Shown: one piece after another, positions 12,208 through 14,993 of the stretch
How the letters are laid out: each line of letters opens with the position of its first letter
How positions within the stretch are numbered: position 1 is the first letter of the stretch
Source of the DNA: a virus
DNA length: 38,123 nt
IMG/VR virus record: IMGVR_UViG_3300043036_000143
Reading direction: 5' to 3' (one strand)
Notes under the pieces: model-generated
What the model saw: the letters and a program-made list of their open reading frames with translations, nothing else
The model's database searches: none
Told to the model about the DNA's origin: nothing
Program-made: the position numbers and the translations under genes

Positions 12208-12588
12208 ATGACACCGATAAAACTACTACACATCCTTCGCAAGATAGATTGCGAGGCGAAACCAAGAAAAGAGCTTCCACCGTTCATCCTGCACCACAAG
12301 ATTTCCCGCGCTATTTTTTTGCTGGAATTACTAAAATACGACACTCCAGTAAGAACCGCGCAGATACCAGAGGATTCACGAATGATCGTTGATTACCGAT
12401 TCACAAAGCGATGGGAGGACGCTGGTGAATACATCATTCAAGGTTGCCAGCAACGTGCCAAATACTCACCGCAAACGGTCTATACATACATCCTAACCGA
12501 CAAGGGGCGTGATGAGGCAAAAAAGATTGAGGCGAATTTGCAGCAAATGATTGATAACGTATCGAACAAAAACAGAAAGATTGCTTAA
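12208..12588 (+). CDS. Hypothetical protein
   Basis: 126-aa ORF following a 100-nt spacer that contains a GC-rich hairpin. Confidence 0.7.
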   Translation: MTPIKLLHILRKIDCEAKPRKELPPFILHHKISRAIFLLELLKYDTPVRTAQIPEDSRMIVDYRFTKRWEDAGEYIIQGCQQRAKYSPQTVYTYILTDKGRDEAKKIEANLQQMIDNVSNKNRKIA

Positions 12589-12589
12589 T

Positions 12590-12793
12590 ATGAACACACA
12601 ACCAAGCACAACAAAGAAGATAGAAGCATGGCTTCTCAGAGGACACAAGATAACACCACTGCAAGCACTCCAGAAATGGGGATGCATGAGACTGGCGGCA
12701 CGGATTGCAGAACTCCGCAACAAGGGTATTGCTATCAGCACTACTAAGGTGAAATCCAACGGTAAAACCTACGCACAATATAAAGCCCTATGA
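12590..12793 (+). CDS. Winged-helix/HTH DNA-binding protein (HTH_39-like)
   Basis: ATG at 12590. ITPLQALQKWGCMRLAARIAELRNKGIAI matches, from memory, the pattern of that small phage HTH family. Confidence 0.65.
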   Translation: MNTQPSTTKKIEAWLLRGHKITPLQALQKWGCMRLAARIAELRNKGIAISTTKVKSNGKTYAQYKAL

Positions 12794-13083
12794 AAAAGAG
12801 AGCTAAGAGAGCGAGCGATGAAGGGTTCAGTATGATTTGCGGCAGACCGAGACACAAGCCGTGGGAGCAAAAGGCTACGATTGTCCTGCGCTTGTCACAG
12901 GAAACATATCAGCGTATCAGGCGGTTATCGTCGCACAGGAGGTGCAGCGTAAGCCAGGCGGCAGAGTTACTCATGCGCACGGAGGAATCTGAGAGGATCG
13001 AGCCGACAATGCCGATTGACTACTCATTCCTAGAAAAGAAAGGCAACAGCTACACAGTATTAGACATTCTTAATTTACCATGA
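12790..13083 (+). CDS. Possible ribbon-helix-helix protein
   Basis: ATIVLRLSQETYQRIRRLSSHRRCSVSQAAELLM fits a strand-helix-helix pattern. The gene is ATGA-coupled on both sides. Confidence 0.55.
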   Translation: MKKRAKRASDEGFSMICGRPRHKPWEQKATIVLRLSQETYQRIRRLSSHRRCSVSQAAELLMRTEESERIEPTMPIDYSFLEKKGNSYTVLDILNLP

Positions 13084-13664
13084 ACACACTAAGAGGATTT
13101 CCCAAACGATACGAGGATGCCCCGCCAGCGACAGGTGACGGATGGTTGGCAAACTATGCCAAAGCACTCGCCACAACCGATTCTGGGGGCATTACGATCC
13201 TTTACGGAGGATATGGCACAGGCAAGACACGCATGGCTTGGGAGGTGGCTAGGGCGCATAAGTCCAAGCGTCCAACAATCAGTAATGGTGGCATTGGATG
13301 GACGACAAGCACGAAGAAACGCCCGATGGTTTACACCACAGCGGTGAACTTGTTCTCAACGATCAAATCCACTTATACTTCTGGATCTGGCAAATCAGAA
13401 AAGGAAGTTGTATCGGATTACTGCGAAGCTGCACTGCTGGTGATAGATGAAGTCCAGGAGCGTGGGGAAACACAATACGAGGATAGACAGCTAACCGCTA
13501 TCATTGATGCGAGATACGCCGCAGATATGCCGACGATCCTGATTTCCAACTATACATGGGAGAGATTAGCATCTACGCTATCTCCAGCTGTGATTGATCG
13601 GATCGAGGAGAACGGGGCGAAACTACTATTCAACTGGGAATCATTTAGAACCAAAACAAAATGA
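13080..13664 (+). CDS. DnaC/IstB-like AAA+ ATPase (helicase loader)
   Basis: Walker A GGYGTGKT and Walker B LLVIDEV are present, with sensor-like PTILISNY. The size and context fit a phage replication module. Confidence 0.8.
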   Translation: MNTLRGFPKRYEDAPPATGDGWLANYAKALATTDSGGITILYGGYGTGKTRMAWEVARAHKSKRPTISNGGIGWTTSTKKRPMVYTTAVNLFSTIKSTYTSGSGKSEKEVVSDYCEAALLVIDEVQERGETQYEDRQLTAIIDARYAADMPTILISNYTWERLASTLSPAVIDRIEENGAKLLFNWESFRTKTK

Positions 13665-13861
13665 ATACACTACCAAATGACGTTGCCCGATGCAAGGGTG
13701 TGGGATTCGATGAGGACGGAACATGGGACTGGCGCGAAGGATGCGAGACATGCCTGCGCAGGACAGCACCGAGAAATGGAGTGCATTTTTTTATTGATCC
13801 GCCCGAAATCGTCGCTTTCGAGTGCGAATACCTTATTGAACCAACCAAGATAAAACCATGA
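13661..13861 (+). CDS. Small Cys-rich protein
   Basis: 66-aa ORF with RCKG...C..C.RR, ATGA-coupled. Confidence 0.65.
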   Translation: MNTLPNDVARCKGVGFDEDGTWDWREGCETCLRRTAPRNGVHFFIDPPEIVAFECEYLIEPTKIKP

Positions 13862-14109
13862 AATACAAAGAACGAATCACACAAATGACTATAACACAAG
13901 TTGATGAACCCCTGCTTTCAGAGACGGCGACAATAATTACTATTGAAGACGATGGGGTAGGTGAATATCTTTCGATCTTCCAACCAACAGGAAGCGGAAA
14001 AGACGCAATCAATATTGATCCCGATGAATGGGTGGTAATGAGATTAACTATTGATCGAATGTTTGCAGATATTAAAGAAAATGAAAACAATGAACACACA
14101 ACTAAATGA
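13858..14109 (+). CDS. Hypothetical acidic protein
   Basis: 83-aa ORF. Its TGA (14107-09) overlaps the ATG at 14106 of the +1-frame ORF. Confidence 0.65.
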   Translation: MKYKERITQMTITQVDEPLLSETATIITIEDDGVGEYLSIFQPTGSGKDAINIDPDEWVVMRLTIDRMFADIKENENNEHTTK

Positions 14110-14980
14110 GCTACACTTATTTGCAGGAGCAGGGGGAGGCATCCTTGGCGGGATGCTTTGCGGACATACCACAGTATGTGCTGTCGAGATTGAACCTTAT
14201 TGCCGAAAAGTCTTACTCCAAAGACAGCGAGACGGAATCTTGCCAAAGTTCCCAATCTGGGATGATGTGCGAACCTTTGACGGCAGACCATGGAGAGGAA
14301 AAGTTGACGTTATTTGTGGAGGATTCCCATGCCAAGACATTAGTTGCGCAGGAAAAGGAGCAGGAATTGAAGGGGAAAGAAGCAGTATGTGGAAGTACAT
14401 GGCGAGAATCATCGGTGAAGTTCGACCTAGATACGCTTTCGTGGAAAACTCACCGATGCTTGTGGGAAGAGGACTTAGCACCGTCCTCGCTGATCTTGCC
14501 GAAATGGGGTATGATGCAAAGTGGGGAATTGTGGGAGCGCATCACGTCTCCGCTCCACACAGACGAGATAGAATCTGGATTCTTGCTACCTACTCCAACG
14601 TGCGCCGATGCAACGATGGGAGCGATTCTGAACGACAATACGAAGCTAATTATGCTCAAGTCGGGCAAACTGCGGAAGATCAGCAATCAGGGAGTATCTG
14701 GCAGCATTGGACTAGCAAGAACGGTTGCTATGTATCCAACCCCATCAGCGAACGAGGATGCAGCAGGGACTCCAAATGGCAAGATGCAGAAGATGCTAGG
14801 GAACTCACCACTAATTCGGGGGACAACACCAGAAGAGTGGAATGGTGGGACTCTGAACCCAACGTGGGTCGAGTGGCTAATGGGGTGGCCTCTAGAGTGG
14901 ACAGACTTAAAGCCATTGGCAATGGGCAAGTATCAATCTGCGCAGCAAAAGCCTGGGAAATACTTTCGGAAATGGCTTGA
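14090..14980 (+). CDS. dcm: DNA (cytosine-5)-methyltransferase
   Basis: Frame A carries motif I LFAGAGGG, motif IV GGFPCQDIS (Cys codon 14330-32), motif VI FVENSPML, motif VIII APHRRDRIWILA and the C-terminal EPNVGRVANGVASRVDRLKAIGNGQV (motif X). Start is ATG 14090 (alternatives 14081 and 14051). Confidence 0.9.
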   Translation: MNTQLNELHLFAGAGGGILGGMLCGHTTVCAVEIEPYCRKVLLQRQRDGILPKFPIWDDVRTFDGRPWRGKVDVICGGFPCQDISCAGKGAGIEGERSSMWKYMARIIGEVRPRYAFVENSPMLVGRGLSTVLADLAEMGYDAKWGIVGAHHVSAPHRRDRIWILATYSNVRRCNDGSDSERQYEANYAQVGQTAEDQQSGSIWQHWTSKNGCYVSNPISERGCSRDSKWQDAEDARELTTNSGDNTRRVEWWDSEPNVGRVANGVASRVDRLKAIGNGQVSICAAKAWEILSEMA

Positions 14981-14993
14981 CTCTTTTGGTTGA
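14106..14993 (+). CDS. 295-codon ORF fully overlapping dcm in the +1 frame (candidate overprinted gene or frameshift product)
   Basis: No stop codon for 888 nt in the alternative frame. The ATG forms an ATGA junction with the upstream gene, as do the five preceding junctions. Motifs SWKT, LPKWGMMQSGELWE, LLPTPTCAD, MYPTPSANED and LNPTWVEWLMGWPLEWTD are recalled from phage/ICE proteins. Confidence 0.55.
   Translation: MSYTYLQEQGEASLAGCFADIPQYVLSRLNLIAEKSYSKDSETESCQSSQSGMMCEPLTADHGEEKLTLFVEDSHAKTLVAQEKEQELKGKEAVCGSTWRESSVKFDLDTLSWKTHRCLWEEDLAPSSLILPKWGMMQSGELWERITSPLHTDEIESGFLLPTPTCADATMGAILNDNTKLIMLKSGKLRKISNQGVSGSIGLARTVAMYPTPSANEDAAGTPNGKMQKMLGNSPLIRGTTPEEWNGGTLNPTWVEWLMGWPLEWTDLKPLAMGKYQSAQQKPGKYFRKWLDSFG

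What the first reader, a model, noticed from the sequence alone, without database searches (positions are those of the whole stretch)
14090..14993. dcm gene completely overlapped by a 295-codon ORF in the +1 frame: candidate dual-coding locus
Frame A (14090..14980) is an unmistakable C5-cytosine methyltransferase, carrying FAGAGGG, GFPCQDIS, ENSPML, HRRDR and LKAIGNGQV. Frame B (14106..14993, shifted +1) runs 888 nt without a stop. Under a uniform-codon null the chance of that is about (61/64)^295, on the order of 1e-6. I did not compute a composition-corrected value. Three observations suggest frame B is not an accident:
- Its ATG forms an ATGA stop-start junction with the upstream gene, continuing an unbroken chain of five such junctions (12790, 13080, 13661, 13858, 14106). 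The dcm ATG instead lies 20 nt inside the upstream gene.
- Frame B encodes motifs I recall from stand-alone or C-terminal regions of phage/ICE proteins: SWKT..., LPKWGMMQSGELWE, LLPTPTCAD, MYPTPSANED and LNPTWVEWLMGWPLEWTD.
- Both minus-strand frames are also unusually open here (ORFs of 78-120 aa), as expected when two frames are constrained.
Alternative: programmed frameshifting (A to B is +1, B to A is -1) could produce chimeric methyltransferase isoforms with different target-recognition regions.
Basis: partly seen in the sequence, partly recalled or inferred. Interest (0 to 1): 0.9.

Follow-up and report, generated by a model that had tools for sequence, protein, structure and literature searches.

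The report
One methyltransferase encoded in two frames
This phage DNA cytosine methyltransferase is written in two fully overlapping reading frames, with the catalytic domain in one and the DNA-recognition domain in the other; thousands of related genes share this layout, but annotation pipelines record only one of the two frames.

Summary
Frame A (14090..14980) and frame B (14106..14993, +1) are both open. In 73 unique loci retrieved by frame-A similarity alone, frame B almost always starts at the same position and runs to about the end of frame A.

Substitution analysis shows a mosaic:
- Purifying selection acts on frame A over motifs I-VIII.
- It acts on frame B over the variable region (TRD) and motif IX. 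Between the window and its closest relative, 23 of 23 differences there are silent in B and replace an amino acid in A.
- It returns to frame A over motif X.
- The unselected stretches of each frame are kept free of stops but not conserved in sequence.

Best explanation: two polypeptides from one initiation region. Alpha carries the catalytic large domain plus motif X. Beta carries a leader, the TRD and motif IX. They would assemble into one C5-methyltransferase, as shown experimentally for M.EcoHK31I and M.AquI.

Programmed frameshifting is not supported: no slippery sites were found, and it would not need both frames open throughout.

I rate this a new variant of a known kind. The overlap is complete, the TRD lies on beta, and the family is very large (about 6,800 clusters at 50% identity) and annotated in only one frame. 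Expression of both proteins is inferred, not shown.

The parts
14090..14980 (+). Frame A ORF, the alpha chain (296 aa from ATG 14090; 299 aa from ATG 14081). Contains motifs I-VIII, an unconserved linker, pre-X and motif X.
   Evidence: PF00145 at 4.7e-33 and phrog_363 at 2.6e-69. In the AF2 model residues 1-168 fold, and Foldseek matches M.HaeIII, M.HhaI and DNMT1 at about 1e-9.
14106..14993 (+). Frame B ORF, the beta chain (295 aa), +1 relative to A. Contains a leader, the TRD, motif IX and a tail.
   Evidence: 6,724 homologues, none with a Pfam domain. phrog_1008 at 9e-23. The start position is conserved in about 72 of 80 loci.
14081..14109 (+). Shared initiation region: frame-A ATGs at 14081 and 14090, and the frame-B ATG at 14106 overlapping the TGA of the upstream ORF (ATGA).
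   Evidence: Relatives show the conserved RTGA-ATG-AGYT, with the A and B starts 4 nt apart behind one purine-rich tract.
14105..14581 (+). Frame A catalytic N-terminal block of 159 codons: motif I 14117-14140, IV 14318-14344, VI 14438-14461, VIII 14558-14587 (VIII runs 6 nt past the block).
   Evidence: Length is fixed in 65 of 70 unique homologues. Frame A pN/pS is 0.17-0.36 with pS saturated at up to 0.73.
14106..14411 (+). Frame B leader (residues 1-102): translated but not constrained in sequence; kept free of stops only.
   Evidence: Frame B pN/pS is 1.1-1.8. pLDDT is below 40. There are no stops in 14 lineages sharing less than 75% nt identity, against 1.2-3.8 expected in each.
14412..14587 (+). 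First doubly constrained stretch: frame B SVKFDLDTLSWKT...LPKWGMMQSGELWE over frame A motifs VI-VIII.
   Evidence: Three frame-A four-fold sites never vary: Val112 is always GTG (B Trp113), Ala131 always GCC (B Pro132), Gly134 always GGG (B Gly135). Mean third-position entropy is 0.94 bits against 1.58 upstream, P = 3e-4. AF2 predicts hairpins at B residues 104-115 and 137-142.
14583..14852 (+). Frame B variable region, the putative TRD (LLPTPTCAD...MYPTPSANED...).
   Evidence: Frame B pN/pS is 0.28 against 1.07 for frame A. Against L008, 23 of 23 differences are silent in B and non-synonymous in A, binomial P = 1.4e-14.
14588..14848 (+). Frame A linker (TYSNVRRCNDGSDSERQ...RRVEWW): the out-of-frame reading of the TRD, kept open so that alpha reaches motif X.
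   Evidence: Frame A pN/pS is 1.07. pLDDT is about 30. Whenever motif X is in frame A, the frame is uninterrupted (62 of 62). Where X is in frame B, frame A ends early.
14853..14906 (+). Frame B motif IX, LNPTWVEWLMGWPLEWTD.
   Evidence: Frame B pN/pS is 0.33 against 1.10 for frame A. The motif is found only in frame B in every locus. hhalign's only alignment places it on M.HhaI motif IX, KLHPRECARVMGYPDSY, at E = 0.048.
14855..14932 (+). Frame A pre-X and motif X (EPNVGRVANGVAS-RVDRLKAIGNGQV). It overlaps motif IX, giving the second doubly constrained stretch.
   Evidence: Motif X segment: frame A pN/pS 0.25. At the RVDRL/WTDLK junction both frames give 0.55. The pre-X sequence is nearly identical to the in-frame pre-X of relatives that carry IX and X in a single frame.
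13858..14109 (+). Upstream ORF (83 aa). Its TGA overlaps the frame-B ATG. It is the last link in a chain of five ATGA-coupled genes running from 12790.

Best explanation
The locus encodes one DNA (cytosine-5) methyltransferase as two co-extensive polypeptides read from the same mRNA in two frames.

Alpha (frame A) supplies the catalytic large domain. It has motifs I-VIII, then an unstructured linker that is simply the out-of-frame reading of the TRD, then pre-X and motif X, which pack back onto the large domain.

Beta (frame B, +1) starts 16 nt downstream of the alpha ATG. In most relatives the gap is 4 nt, within ATGAATG. In this window the beta ATG overlaps the stop codon of the preceding gene. 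Beta begins with a leader of about 100 residues whose only requirement is to contain no stop. It then supplies the small domain: two hairpin-like elements, the target-recognition (variable) region and motif IX.

The two chains would assemble into an active heterodimer, as M.EcoHK31I and M.AquI do.

Shown here: both ORFs exist; both are conserved as open frames; the selected frame switches A to B to A; the start architecture is conserved.

Inferred: both proteins are made; they associate; the complex methylates DNA; beta needs the upstream start because no ribosome-binding site can be placed inside alpha's constrained coding sequence.
For: Frame B is kept open and starts at a fixed place.
- Loci were sampled by frame-A similarity only (50-84% identity).
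- About 72 of 80 have a frame-B ATG exactly 11 nt upstream of the motif-I Leu codon, and three of the exceptions have GTG at that position.
- The frame-B ORF ends within roughly 40 nt of frame A's stop.

Stop avoidance in the unselected segments.
- The frame-B leader has no stops in 14 lineages sharing less than 75% nt identity, against 1.2-3.8 expected in each. The joint Poisson probability is about 1e-16.
- The frame-A linker is uninterrupted in 62 of 62 loci where motif X lies in frame A.
- The third forward frame has 14-28 stops per gene.

Selection mosaic, pN/pS for frame A / frame B.
- N-terminal block: 0.17-0.36 / 0.95-1.77.
- Middle region: 1.07 / 0.28.
- Motif IX: 1.10 / 0.33.
- Motif X: 0.25 / 0.83.

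Window against L008 in the TRD: 23 of 23 differences are silent in B and non-synonymous in A, P = 1.4e-14.

Frame-B-specific constraint on three frame-A four-fold sites that never vary.

AF2 gives complementary pictures. Alpha folds over residues 1-168 and is disordered over 170-285. Beta is disordered over 1-101 and is most confident over about 175-265.

Natural controls.
- Where motif X sits in frame B (L002, L003, L015, L071, L082), frame A terminates early.
- L084 is a decayed copy with broken frames.
- In Bacillus and Methanomethylovorans plasmids the frame-B ORF starts at an internal ATG but still about 100 codons upstream of the TRD.

No single-chain version. None of the best 150 of 6,852 representative TRD+IX homologues carries motifs I, IV and VI in the same chain.

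Precedent. M.EcoHK31I beta is encoded within the alpha gene in another frame, and both chains are needed. M.AquI is also made of two subunits (PMC2836561, PMC3404938).
Against: - No direct evidence of translation of either frame: no proteomics or ribosome profiling is available.
- The frame-B AF2 model is poor (mean pLDDT 49) and has no Foldseek match.
- The identification of motif IX rests on the pattern and a weak hhalign hit (E = 0.048). Pfam and PDB profile searches did not reach motifs IX or X.
- An alpha chain with an 80-250 residue disordered linker and a beta chain with a 100-residue disordered leader are unusual proteins.
- The selected segments A(I-VIII) + B(TRD, IX) + A(X) would also join into a canonical single chain, so recoding cannot be formally excluded.
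- This window has no obvious Shine-Dalgarno sequence ahead of either start.
Confidence: 0.72

Rival explanations
1. Recoding. Ribosomes start in frame A, shift +1 after motif VIII into the TRD and motif IX, then shift -1 back to frame A before motif X. This would give a canonical single-chain methyltransferase. The full-length frame-A and frame-B products would be by-products or minor isoforms.
For: The segments under purifying selection, A(I-VIII), B(TRD+IX) and A(X), join into a canonical motif order. In relatives with motif X in frame B, a single +1 shift would be enough.
Against: - No X_XXY_YYZ heptamer occurs in frame B at the B-to-A junction in any of 47 loci, and there is no invariant motif at the A-to-B junction.
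- The return point differs between lineages: before IX, after IX, or never.
- Frameshifting does not explain a conserved frame-B start codon about 160 codons upstream of the shift site.
- It does not explain the absence of stops in the frame-B leader or the frame-A linker.
- Two efficient shifts within one gene are not known to me in bacteria or their phages.
Confidence: 0.1
2. Frame B encodes a real protein whose function is separate from the methyltransferase, for example a DNA-binding regulator or an anti-defence factor. Frame A alone would be a complete small methyltransferase with a degenerate recognition region.
For: Frame A matches phrog_363 from end to end and is what annotators call the methyltransferase. 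Frame B has no Pfam domain.
Against: - Frame A's region between motifs VIII and X evolves neutrally (pN/pS 1.07), varies from 37 to 250 codons and is predicted to be disordered. Alpha therefore has no selected recognition domain or motif IX.
- The only selected sequence at that place is in frame B.
- In some relatives frame B continues in the same frame into motif X, which ties it to the enzyme.
Confidence: 0.12
3. Artefact or decay. The open +1 frame would be a chance or compositional effect, or the gene would be a methyltransferase pseudogene carrying two compensating indels or sequencing errors.
For: A few database proteins are A/B chimeras that look like indel products (P0254, P0273, P0339, P0377). 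One locus, L084, is clearly broken.
Against: The same two-frame layout recurs in dozens of independently assembled contigs and in finished genomes of cultured phages and plasmids: Salmonella, Pseudomonas, Acinetobacter, Bacillus and Methanomethylovorans. Both frames show frame-specific purifying selection. GC content is 50%, so this is not a high-GC open-frame effect.
Confidence: 0.02

Closest known systems
M.EcoHK31I (E. coli HK31; Lee, Kam and Shaw 1995, as described in PMC2836561 and PMC3404938)
   Same: - A C5-methyltransferase made of two polypeptides.
- Beta is encoded inside the alpha gene in a different reading frame.
[quoted passage not shown]
- The N-terminal part of beta is largely dispensable.
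- Silent removal of the beta start codons abolishes activity.
   Different: - The beta ORF here is co-extensive with alpha (295 against 296 codons), not a 176-aa ORF nested in a 309-aa one. It starts 4-16 nt from the alpha start.
- Selection shows the variable/TRD region is read in beta's frame, whereas the literature assigns the TRD of M.EcoHK31I to alpha.
- This is an orphan enzyme in a phage replication module, not part of a restriction-modification pair.
- Sequence homology to M.EcoHK31I could not be tested because its sequence is not in the available tools.
M.AquI (Agmenellum quadruplicatum; Karreman and de Waard 1990, as cited in PMC3404938)
   Same: A two-subunit C5-methyltransferase split within the variable region. 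Relatives of the window (L002, L003, L015, L071, L082) have just this division: alpha carries I-VIII, and beta carries the TRD, IX and X.
   Different: In the window motif X is on alpha, not beta. In this family beta's ORF overlaps the whole alpha catalytic domain rather than only a short junction. The extent of the M.AquI overlap is from my own recollection.
Out-of-frame 'hidden HNH' insertions in phage methylase genes (ShiLan domain; PMC11855218)
   Same: A phage methylase ORF that stays open across a stretch whose real coding sense is in another frame. The host-frame reading is disordered filler. The same kind of insertion, an HNH ORF in a third frame between IX and X, is seen in relatives L003, L004 and L015.
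   Different: There the second frame encodes a selfish homing endonuclease, not a part of the methyltransferase itself. That paper does not describe the alpha/beta two-frame architecture.
Canonical monomeric C5-methyltransferases (M.HhaI, M.HaeIII; PF00145)
   Same: Same catalytic motifs and the same predicted large-domain fold. Foldseek gives about 1e-9 over roughly 170-190 aligned columns. The logical order I-VIII, TRD, IX, X is the same.
   Different: Those are single chains. Here the small domain (TRD and IX) is read in the +1 frame, and no single-chain relative turned up among the closest 150 TRD+IX representatives.

Membership tests
DNA (cytosine-5) methyltransferase, PF00145 | Motif I FxGxGG (AdoMet binding), motif IV PCQ (catalytic Cys), motif VI ENV-type, motif VIII QxRxR-type | tested here: met
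   Frame A has LFAGAGGG at 14117-14140, GGFPCQDIS at 14318-14344, FVENSPML at 14438-14461 and HRRDRIWILA at 14558-14587. PF00145 scores 115 bits against a cut-off of 22. The Foldseek search matches M.HaeIII and M.HhaI.
DNA (cytosine-5) methyltransferase, PF00145 | Motif X (GN.V) at the C-terminus | tested here: met
   Frame A has RLKAIGNGQV at 14903-14932. Frame A pN/pS there is 0.25. G277, N278 and Q280 are invariant in 78 sequences.
DNA (cytosine-5) methyltransferase, PF00145 | Motif IX (L.P.E...[LV][MQ]G[FYW]P) between the TRD and motif X in the same chain | tested here: not met
   The motif-IX pattern LNPTWVEWLMGWP occurs only in frame B, in the window and in every relative where it was found. 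Its register on M.HhaI motif IX is right but statistically weak (E = 0.048).
M.EcoHK31I-type heterodimeric C5-methyltransferase | [quoted passage not shown] | tested here: met
M.EcoHK31I-type heterodimeric C5-methyltransferase | The beta ORF lies within the alpha gene in another frame and carries motif IX | tested here: met
   Frame B 14106..14993 is +1 relative to frame A 14090..14980, with motif IX at 14853-14906. The arrangement is conserved in 62 of 73 unique loci. The IX motif itself matched my regex in 32 of those 62.
M.EcoHK31I-type heterodimeric C5-methyltransferase | TRD located on alpha (as stated in the literature) | tested here: not met
   The region between motifs VIII and IX is under purifying selection in frame B (pN/pS 0.28) and evolves neutrally in frame A (1.07). 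Against L008, 23 of 23 differences are silent in B.
M.EcoHK31I-type heterodimeric C5-methyltransferase | Both polypeptides are made, associate, and are both needed for activity | not testable with these tools
   Needs expression, pull-down and methylation assays. Only indirect evidence exists here: conserved starts and stop avoidance.
M.EcoHK31I-type heterodimeric C5-methyltransferase | Sequence homology to M.EcoHK31I alpha and beta | not tested
The original papers (PMC306636, PMC208427) are not held.
M.AquI-type split C5-methyltransferase | Alpha carries I-VIII; beta carries the distal variable region, IX and X | tested here: not met
   In the window motif X is in frame A. The feature is met by relatives L002, L003, L015, L071 and L082, and by 13 of the top 120 frame-B proteins.
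Programmed ribosomal frameshift genes | Conserved slippery site at the shift point, with the zero frame closed soon after and the new frame unconstrained upstream | tested here: not met
   None of 47 loci has a canonical heptamer at the B-to-A junction, and there is no invariant motif at the A-to-B junction. Both frames stay open well beyond the junctions, and frame B has a conserved start about 160 codons upstream.

The most novel reading that the evidence does not exclude
A very large and ancient clade of C5-methyltransferases on phages, plasmids and other mobile elements of Bacteria, and at least one archaeon, may be obligatorily encoded as two overlapping ORFs.
- The DNA-recognition subunit would always lie in the +1 frame of the catalytic subunit, with both launched from one initiation region.
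- Long stretches of each protein would be translated filler, selected only to lack stop codons.
- The motif IX / pre-X module would be truly dual-coded. It appears to have been un-overlapped by duplication in some lineages.
- The published assignment of the TRD to the alpha chain of M.EcoHK31I might then need revision.
- Current annotation would miss half of each enzyme.
Probability: 0.55. Interest if true: 0.8.

Novelty: new variant of a known kind. Interest (0 to 1): 0.7.

Why it matters
**Scale.** Long same-strand overlapping genes with evidence of selection in both frames are rare in prokaryotes and their viruses. Here the overlap covers a whole gene of about 890 nt, and thousands of homologues are available. 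That makes it an unusually good natural system for studying how two proteins share one sequence, including translated segments selected only for the absence of stops.

**Annotation.** Gene finders forbid such overlaps. Databases therefore hold either alpha (named 'DNA cytosine methyltransferase', but lacking a real recognition domain) or beta ('hypothetical protein'), never both. Specificity prediction for these phage methyltransferases from the annotated protein alone would be wrong, because the recognition domain is in the other frame. This affects REBASE-style target inference.

**Mechanism.** The ATGAATG twin start suggests a simple way to make two subunits from one ribosome-binding site.

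**Earlier work.** The result places the single experimentally studied case, M.EcoHK31I, within what appears to be a widespread architecture.

Tried and rejected
- Pfam scoring of frame A against an A-to-B-to-A chimera. The HMM aligns only the N-terminal domain in either case, so this was uninformative.
- phmmer of frame A and of the chimera against PDB sequences. Both align only over residues 4-168.
- A profile of the IX-to-X segment against PDB, and the same segments against Pfam. No methyltransferase hit; the profile was too short and narrow.
- Foldseek with the frame-B model. Nothing significant, and the model is low-confidence, so this is not evidence against.
- NCBIfam. Only TIGR00675, below its cut-off, for frame A. 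Nothing for frame B.
- Reading the original M.EcoHK31I and M.AquI papers. Not held. I relied on two later open-access papers that describe them.
- Four literature searches for a family-wide description of two-frame phage C5-methyltransferases, plus two searches on the M.EcoHK31I and M.AquI names. None found. The library lacks most subscription journals and REBASE, so absence is weak evidence.
- My first test of stop avoidance in frame A's linker was biased by ascertainment, because I had selected loci with motif X inside the frame-A ORF. I replaced it with an unbiased tally.
- I first thought frame A's VGRVAxGVA was only a mechanical by-product of frame B's WVEWLMGWP. Relatives with IX and X in one frame show a near-identical in-frame pre-X element, so that stretch probably serves both frames.
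- I considered, and rejected, frame A alone being a complete small methyltransferase. Its region between motifs VIII and X is unselected.
Full report
**1. What is in the sequence**

- Frame A runs from ATG 14090 to the stop at 14978-14980. Other in-frame starts are ATG 14081 and TTG 14051.
- Frame B runs from ATG 14106 to the stop at 14991-14993. It is +1 relative to A and 295 codons long.
- The frame-B ATG overlaps the TGA of the upstream ORF (13858-14109). This is the fifth ATGA junction in a row: 12790, 13080, 13661, 13858, 14106.

The locus sits in a phage replication module. A DnaC-like helicase loader lies upstream and an HNH endonuclease downstream. Endolysin and tail genes follow on the other strand.

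For this gene alone, a null that permutes frame A's own synonymous codons expects about 8 stops in the +1 frame. None of 5,000 permutations was open. The +2 frame has 22 stops. Two antisense frames are also depleted in stops. That is the expected by-product of having two sense frames with normal codon usage.

**2. Both translations match real database families**

Frame A matches PF00145 at 4.7e-33 and covers phrog_363 from end to end at 2.6e-69. Frame B has no Pfam domain but matches phrog_1008 ('DNA methyltransferase') at 9e-23.

In the 5.8-billion-protein collection, 6,724 proteins match frame B. Many share only 43-55% identity yet cover about 97% of the query, and none of the top 120 has a Pfam domain. 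Frame A's relatives in the same collection all carry PF00145. Gene callers evidently pick one frame or the other.

In GenBank, the Pseudomonas phage VB_PaD_phPA-G record annotates frame B as 'hypothetical protein'. The Salmonella phage S9-5 and Acinetobacter phage ABMM1 records annotate frame A as the methyltransferase. In all three genomes both frames are open.

**3. The layout is conserved in an unbiased sample**

I fetched 80 viral loci using frame A alone as the query, at 50-84% identity.
- In about 72 of them frame B has an ATG exactly 11 nt upstream of the motif-I Leu codon. This ATG is the aAT-Gag of a conserved Asn-Glu pair.
- Three apparent exceptions have GTG at that same position.
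- The frame-B ORF ends within a few tens of nucleotides of frame A's stop.
- The initiation region is conserved as RTGA-ATG-AGYT. The frame-A start and the frame-B start are usually 4 nt apart (ATGAATGAG) behind one purine-rich tract.
- The window is a variant, with the frame-A ATG 16 nt upstream and the frame-B ATG coupled to the preceding gene.

Over 73 unique loci, motif X was found in 68. I located motifs in any frame to avoid ascertainment bias.

| Position of motif X | Loci |
|---|---|
| Frame A, no stop back to motif I | 62 |
| Frame B, open | 5 |
| Third frame, 10 stops (L084, a decayed copy) | 1 |
| Frame A but interrupted | 0 |

Where motif IX was found, it was in frame B in every locus except the decayed L084, and never in frame A.

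**4. Selection is a mosaic**

I pooled Nei-Gojobori estimates over pairs of unique sequences.

| Region | Frame A pN/pS | Frame B pN/pS |
|---|---|---|
| N-terminal block (159 codons, motifs I-VIII) | 0.17-0.36 | 0.95-1.77 |
| Middle region between VIII and IX (37-250 codons) | 1.07 | 0.28 |
| Motif IX | 1.10 | 0.33 |
| RVDRL/WTDLK junction | 0.55 | 0.55 |
| Motif X | 0.25 | 0.83 |

In the N-terminal block, frame A's synonymous sites are saturated (pS up to 0.73). The block has a fixed length in 65 of 70 unique sequences.

Window against its closest relative with DNA (L008, 89% nt identity):
- N-terminal block: 36 of 53 differences are synonymous in A.
- Middle region: 23 of 23 differences are synonymous in B and non-synonymous in A (binomial P = 1.4e-14).

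The unselected stretches are nevertheless kept open. The frame-B leader has no stops in 14 lineages sharing less than 75% nt identity, against 1.2-3.8 expected in each. The joint probability is about 1e-16.

Frame B's own constraint begins before the middle region. Three frame-A four-fold sites never vary in 39 sequences that share less than 90% identity:
- Val112 is always GTG, fixing frame-B Trp113.
- Ala131 is always GCC, fixing Pro132.
- Gly134 is always GGG, fixing Gly135.

Stop avoidance alone would not require these choices. Third-position entropy is 0.94 bits over codons 100-139 against 1.58 over codons 60-99, P = 3e-4.

So about 250 nt of the window carry constraint from both frames (14412-14587 and 14855-14932). 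The rest is selected in one frame and merely open in the other.

**5. Structure predictions agree**

With family alignments, AF2 folds frame A over residues 1-168 (pLDDT 60-85). Foldseek matches this part to M.HaeIII, M.HhaI and DNMT1 at about 1e-9. Residues 170-285 are left at pLDDT about 30.

Frame B is the converse. Residues 1-101 are below 40. Short hairpins appear at 104-115 and 137-142. Its best region is about 175-265. That model is too weak for fold search.

hhalign's only alignment between a motif IX-to-X profile and M.HhaI places LNPDWVEWLMGWPIGW on KLHPRECARVMGYPDSY, which is motif IX. The register is right but the statistics are weak, E = 0.048. I wrote the M.HhaI sequence from memory and verified it against 10mh_A.

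**6. How it most likely works**

The functional residues are A(I-VIII) + B(TRD, IX) + A(X). [quoted passage not shown] The two frames therefore correspond to the two structural domains.

I propose two polypeptides:
- Alpha: the large domain, with a disordered linker where the small domain would normally be inserted.
- Beta: a disordered leader followed by the small domain.

Beta must be translated from the shared 5' start, which explains why its leader must stay open. Alpha must read through the TRD DNA to reach motif X, which explains why its linker must stay open.

There is experimental precedent. M.EcoHK31I beta (motif IX) is encoded entirely within the alpha gene (I-VIII, X) in another frame. 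Both chains are needed, and silent removal of the beta starts abolishes activity. M.AquI is split into I-VIII and IX-X (PMC2836561, PMC3404938).

Expression, association and activity of the present pair are inferred, not shown.

**7. Rivals**

- **Double frameshifting** (+1, then -1) would give a canonical single chain. However, no slippery heptamer occurs at the B-to-A junction (0 of 47 loci), and there is no invariant motif at the A-to-B junction. The return point differs between lineages. Frameshifting also explains neither the conserved frame-B start about 160 codons upstream nor the stop-free filler.
- **Beta with an unrelated function.** This is unlikely because alpha then has no selected recognition region, and because in some relatives beta continues in frame into motif X.
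- **Artefact or pseudogene.** Excluded by recurrence in finished genomes and by frame-specific selection.

**8. Breadth and evolution**

The window's TRD+IX segment matches 6,852 representative clusters at the 50% identity level. None of the best 150 has motifs I, IV and VI in the same chain. Four are A-to-B chimeras of the kind a single indel produces when both frames are open.

The layout also occurs in these plasmids:
- Acinetobacter baumannii: same type as the window.
- Bacillus thuringiensis and the archaeon Methanomethylovorans hollandica: the frame-B ORF starts at an internal ATG 50-65 codons into frame A.
- Streptomyces platensis: only the LLPTP-type TRD is in the +1 frame, and motifs IX and X are back in the methyltransferase frame.

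The common feature in all loci I inspected is that the TRD lies in the +1 frame of the catalytic domain. What varies is where, or whether, the reading returns.

Relatives with IX and X in one frame carry an in-frame pre-X element, VPRVATGVAARVDRLKAIGN. It is almost identical to the window's frame-A reading of the motif-IX DNA, NVGRVANGVASRVDRLKAIGN. Each of their two copies still shows a relic of the other motif in the alternative frame. This suggests that a dual-coded IX/pre-X module was un-overlapped by duplication. That is an inference.

**9. Novelty and verdict**

The kind is known: heterodimeric C5-methyltransferases, one of them with nested frames. Features I could not find described are:
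- the complete overlap;
- the twin start;
- the TRD on beta;
- the translated filler segments;
- the size and phylogenetic spread of the family.

I ran four searches for such a description and two on the M.EcoHK31I and M.AquI names. The library is incomplete, and I could not compare directly with the M.EcoHK31I sequence.

I rate this a new variant of a known kind, interest 0.7, with confidence 0.72 in the two-polypeptide mechanism.

Noticed in passing
L003:3001-4452, L004:496-1947, L015 (proteins P0019, P0043, P0048, P0069; a similar case is P0080): Between motif IX and motif X these relatives carry an insertion of about 130 codons. A third frame of the insertion encodes an HNH endonuclease with zinc-finger-like CxxC pairs (...CEACGYMRALQAHHIDQDIRNNQPENIQTLCKHCHDFWH...). 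The frame-B ORF stays open across it. This is the same kind of element as the 'hidden HNH' ShiLan insertion in actinophage methylases (PMC11855218).
   Followed up: partly
window:15011-15382 (+): A free-standing HNH endonuclease ORF lies immediately downstream of the methyltransferase (phrog_2255 at 5.8e-7; ...LTLDHVLKNG...CMNCQF). Given the HNH insertions inside relatives' methyltransferase genes, it may be a homing endonuclease associated with this locus.
   Followed up: partly
window:12790-14109 (+): Five consecutive genes are joined by ATGA stop/start overlaps, at 12790, 13080, 13661, 13858 and 14106. Together with the ORF 12551-12793 at the head of the chain, they form a translationally coupled string through the replication module. 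The module includes a DnaC-like helicase loader at 13080-13664.
   Followed up: partly
L002:3001-4209 and L003:3001-4452: In relatives with IX and X in one frame, the -1 reading of the motif-IX copy still shows a decayed pre-X (EPRLGRVAHGVA..., WWATEPDVGGKTDGLATKMDGG). The +1 reading of the X copy still shows a decayed motif IX (AWPLGWTDSKPLETDR). This suggests that an ancestral dual-coded IX/pre-X module was duplicated and that each copy then specialised.
   Followed up: partly
L091:481-1452 (Streptomyces platensis plasmid NZ_CP108975): A third arrangement. Motifs I-VIII, IX and X are all in the annotated frame, but the LLPTPRTSD...LLPTPTVAD recognition-type region is in the +1 frame and stops before motif IX. 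The genome is high-GC, so the open frames alone mean less here.
   Followed up: no
L089:725-1270 (Bacillus thuringiensis p05) and L090:689-1290 (Methanomethylovorans hollandica pMETHO01): In these distant plasmids frame B has stops in its first 50-65 codons. The ORF then starts at an internal ATG, still about 100 codons upstream of the TRD, and carries LLPTPTA/LIPTPTH and motif IX. Only frame A is annotated, as dcm.
   Followed up: partly
L084:1505-2440: The one clearly decayed copy. Frame A stops 161 codons after motif I, frame B stops after 180 codons, and motifs IX and X lie in the third frame behind 10 stops. It serves as a natural example of what loss of selection looks like.
   Followed up: no
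Proteins P0254, P0273, P0339, P0377: These database proteins begin in the frame-A reading (motif I) and switch to the frame-B reading at or just after motif IV, losing downstream catalytic motifs. They are probably indel errors or decayed genes that still give long ORFs because both frames are open. I did not examine whether the recurring switch near motif IV means anything.
   Followed up: no
window:14855-14932, and hits H15-H22: The roughly 75-nt IX/pre-X/X stretch is 79-83% identical at the DNA level to methyltransferase genes of phages infecting very different hosts (Salmonella, Lacticaseibacillus, Brochothrix). This fits double-frame constraint on these nucleotides.
   Followed up: partly
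L005 (PP083311), L006 (MW722521), L007 (OQ471969), L088 (NZ_CP050417): Annotation is inconsistent. One cultured-phage record annotates only frame B ('hypothetical protein'). The others, including the RefSeq (PGAP) record L088, annotate only frame A. No record annotates both.
   Followed up: yes
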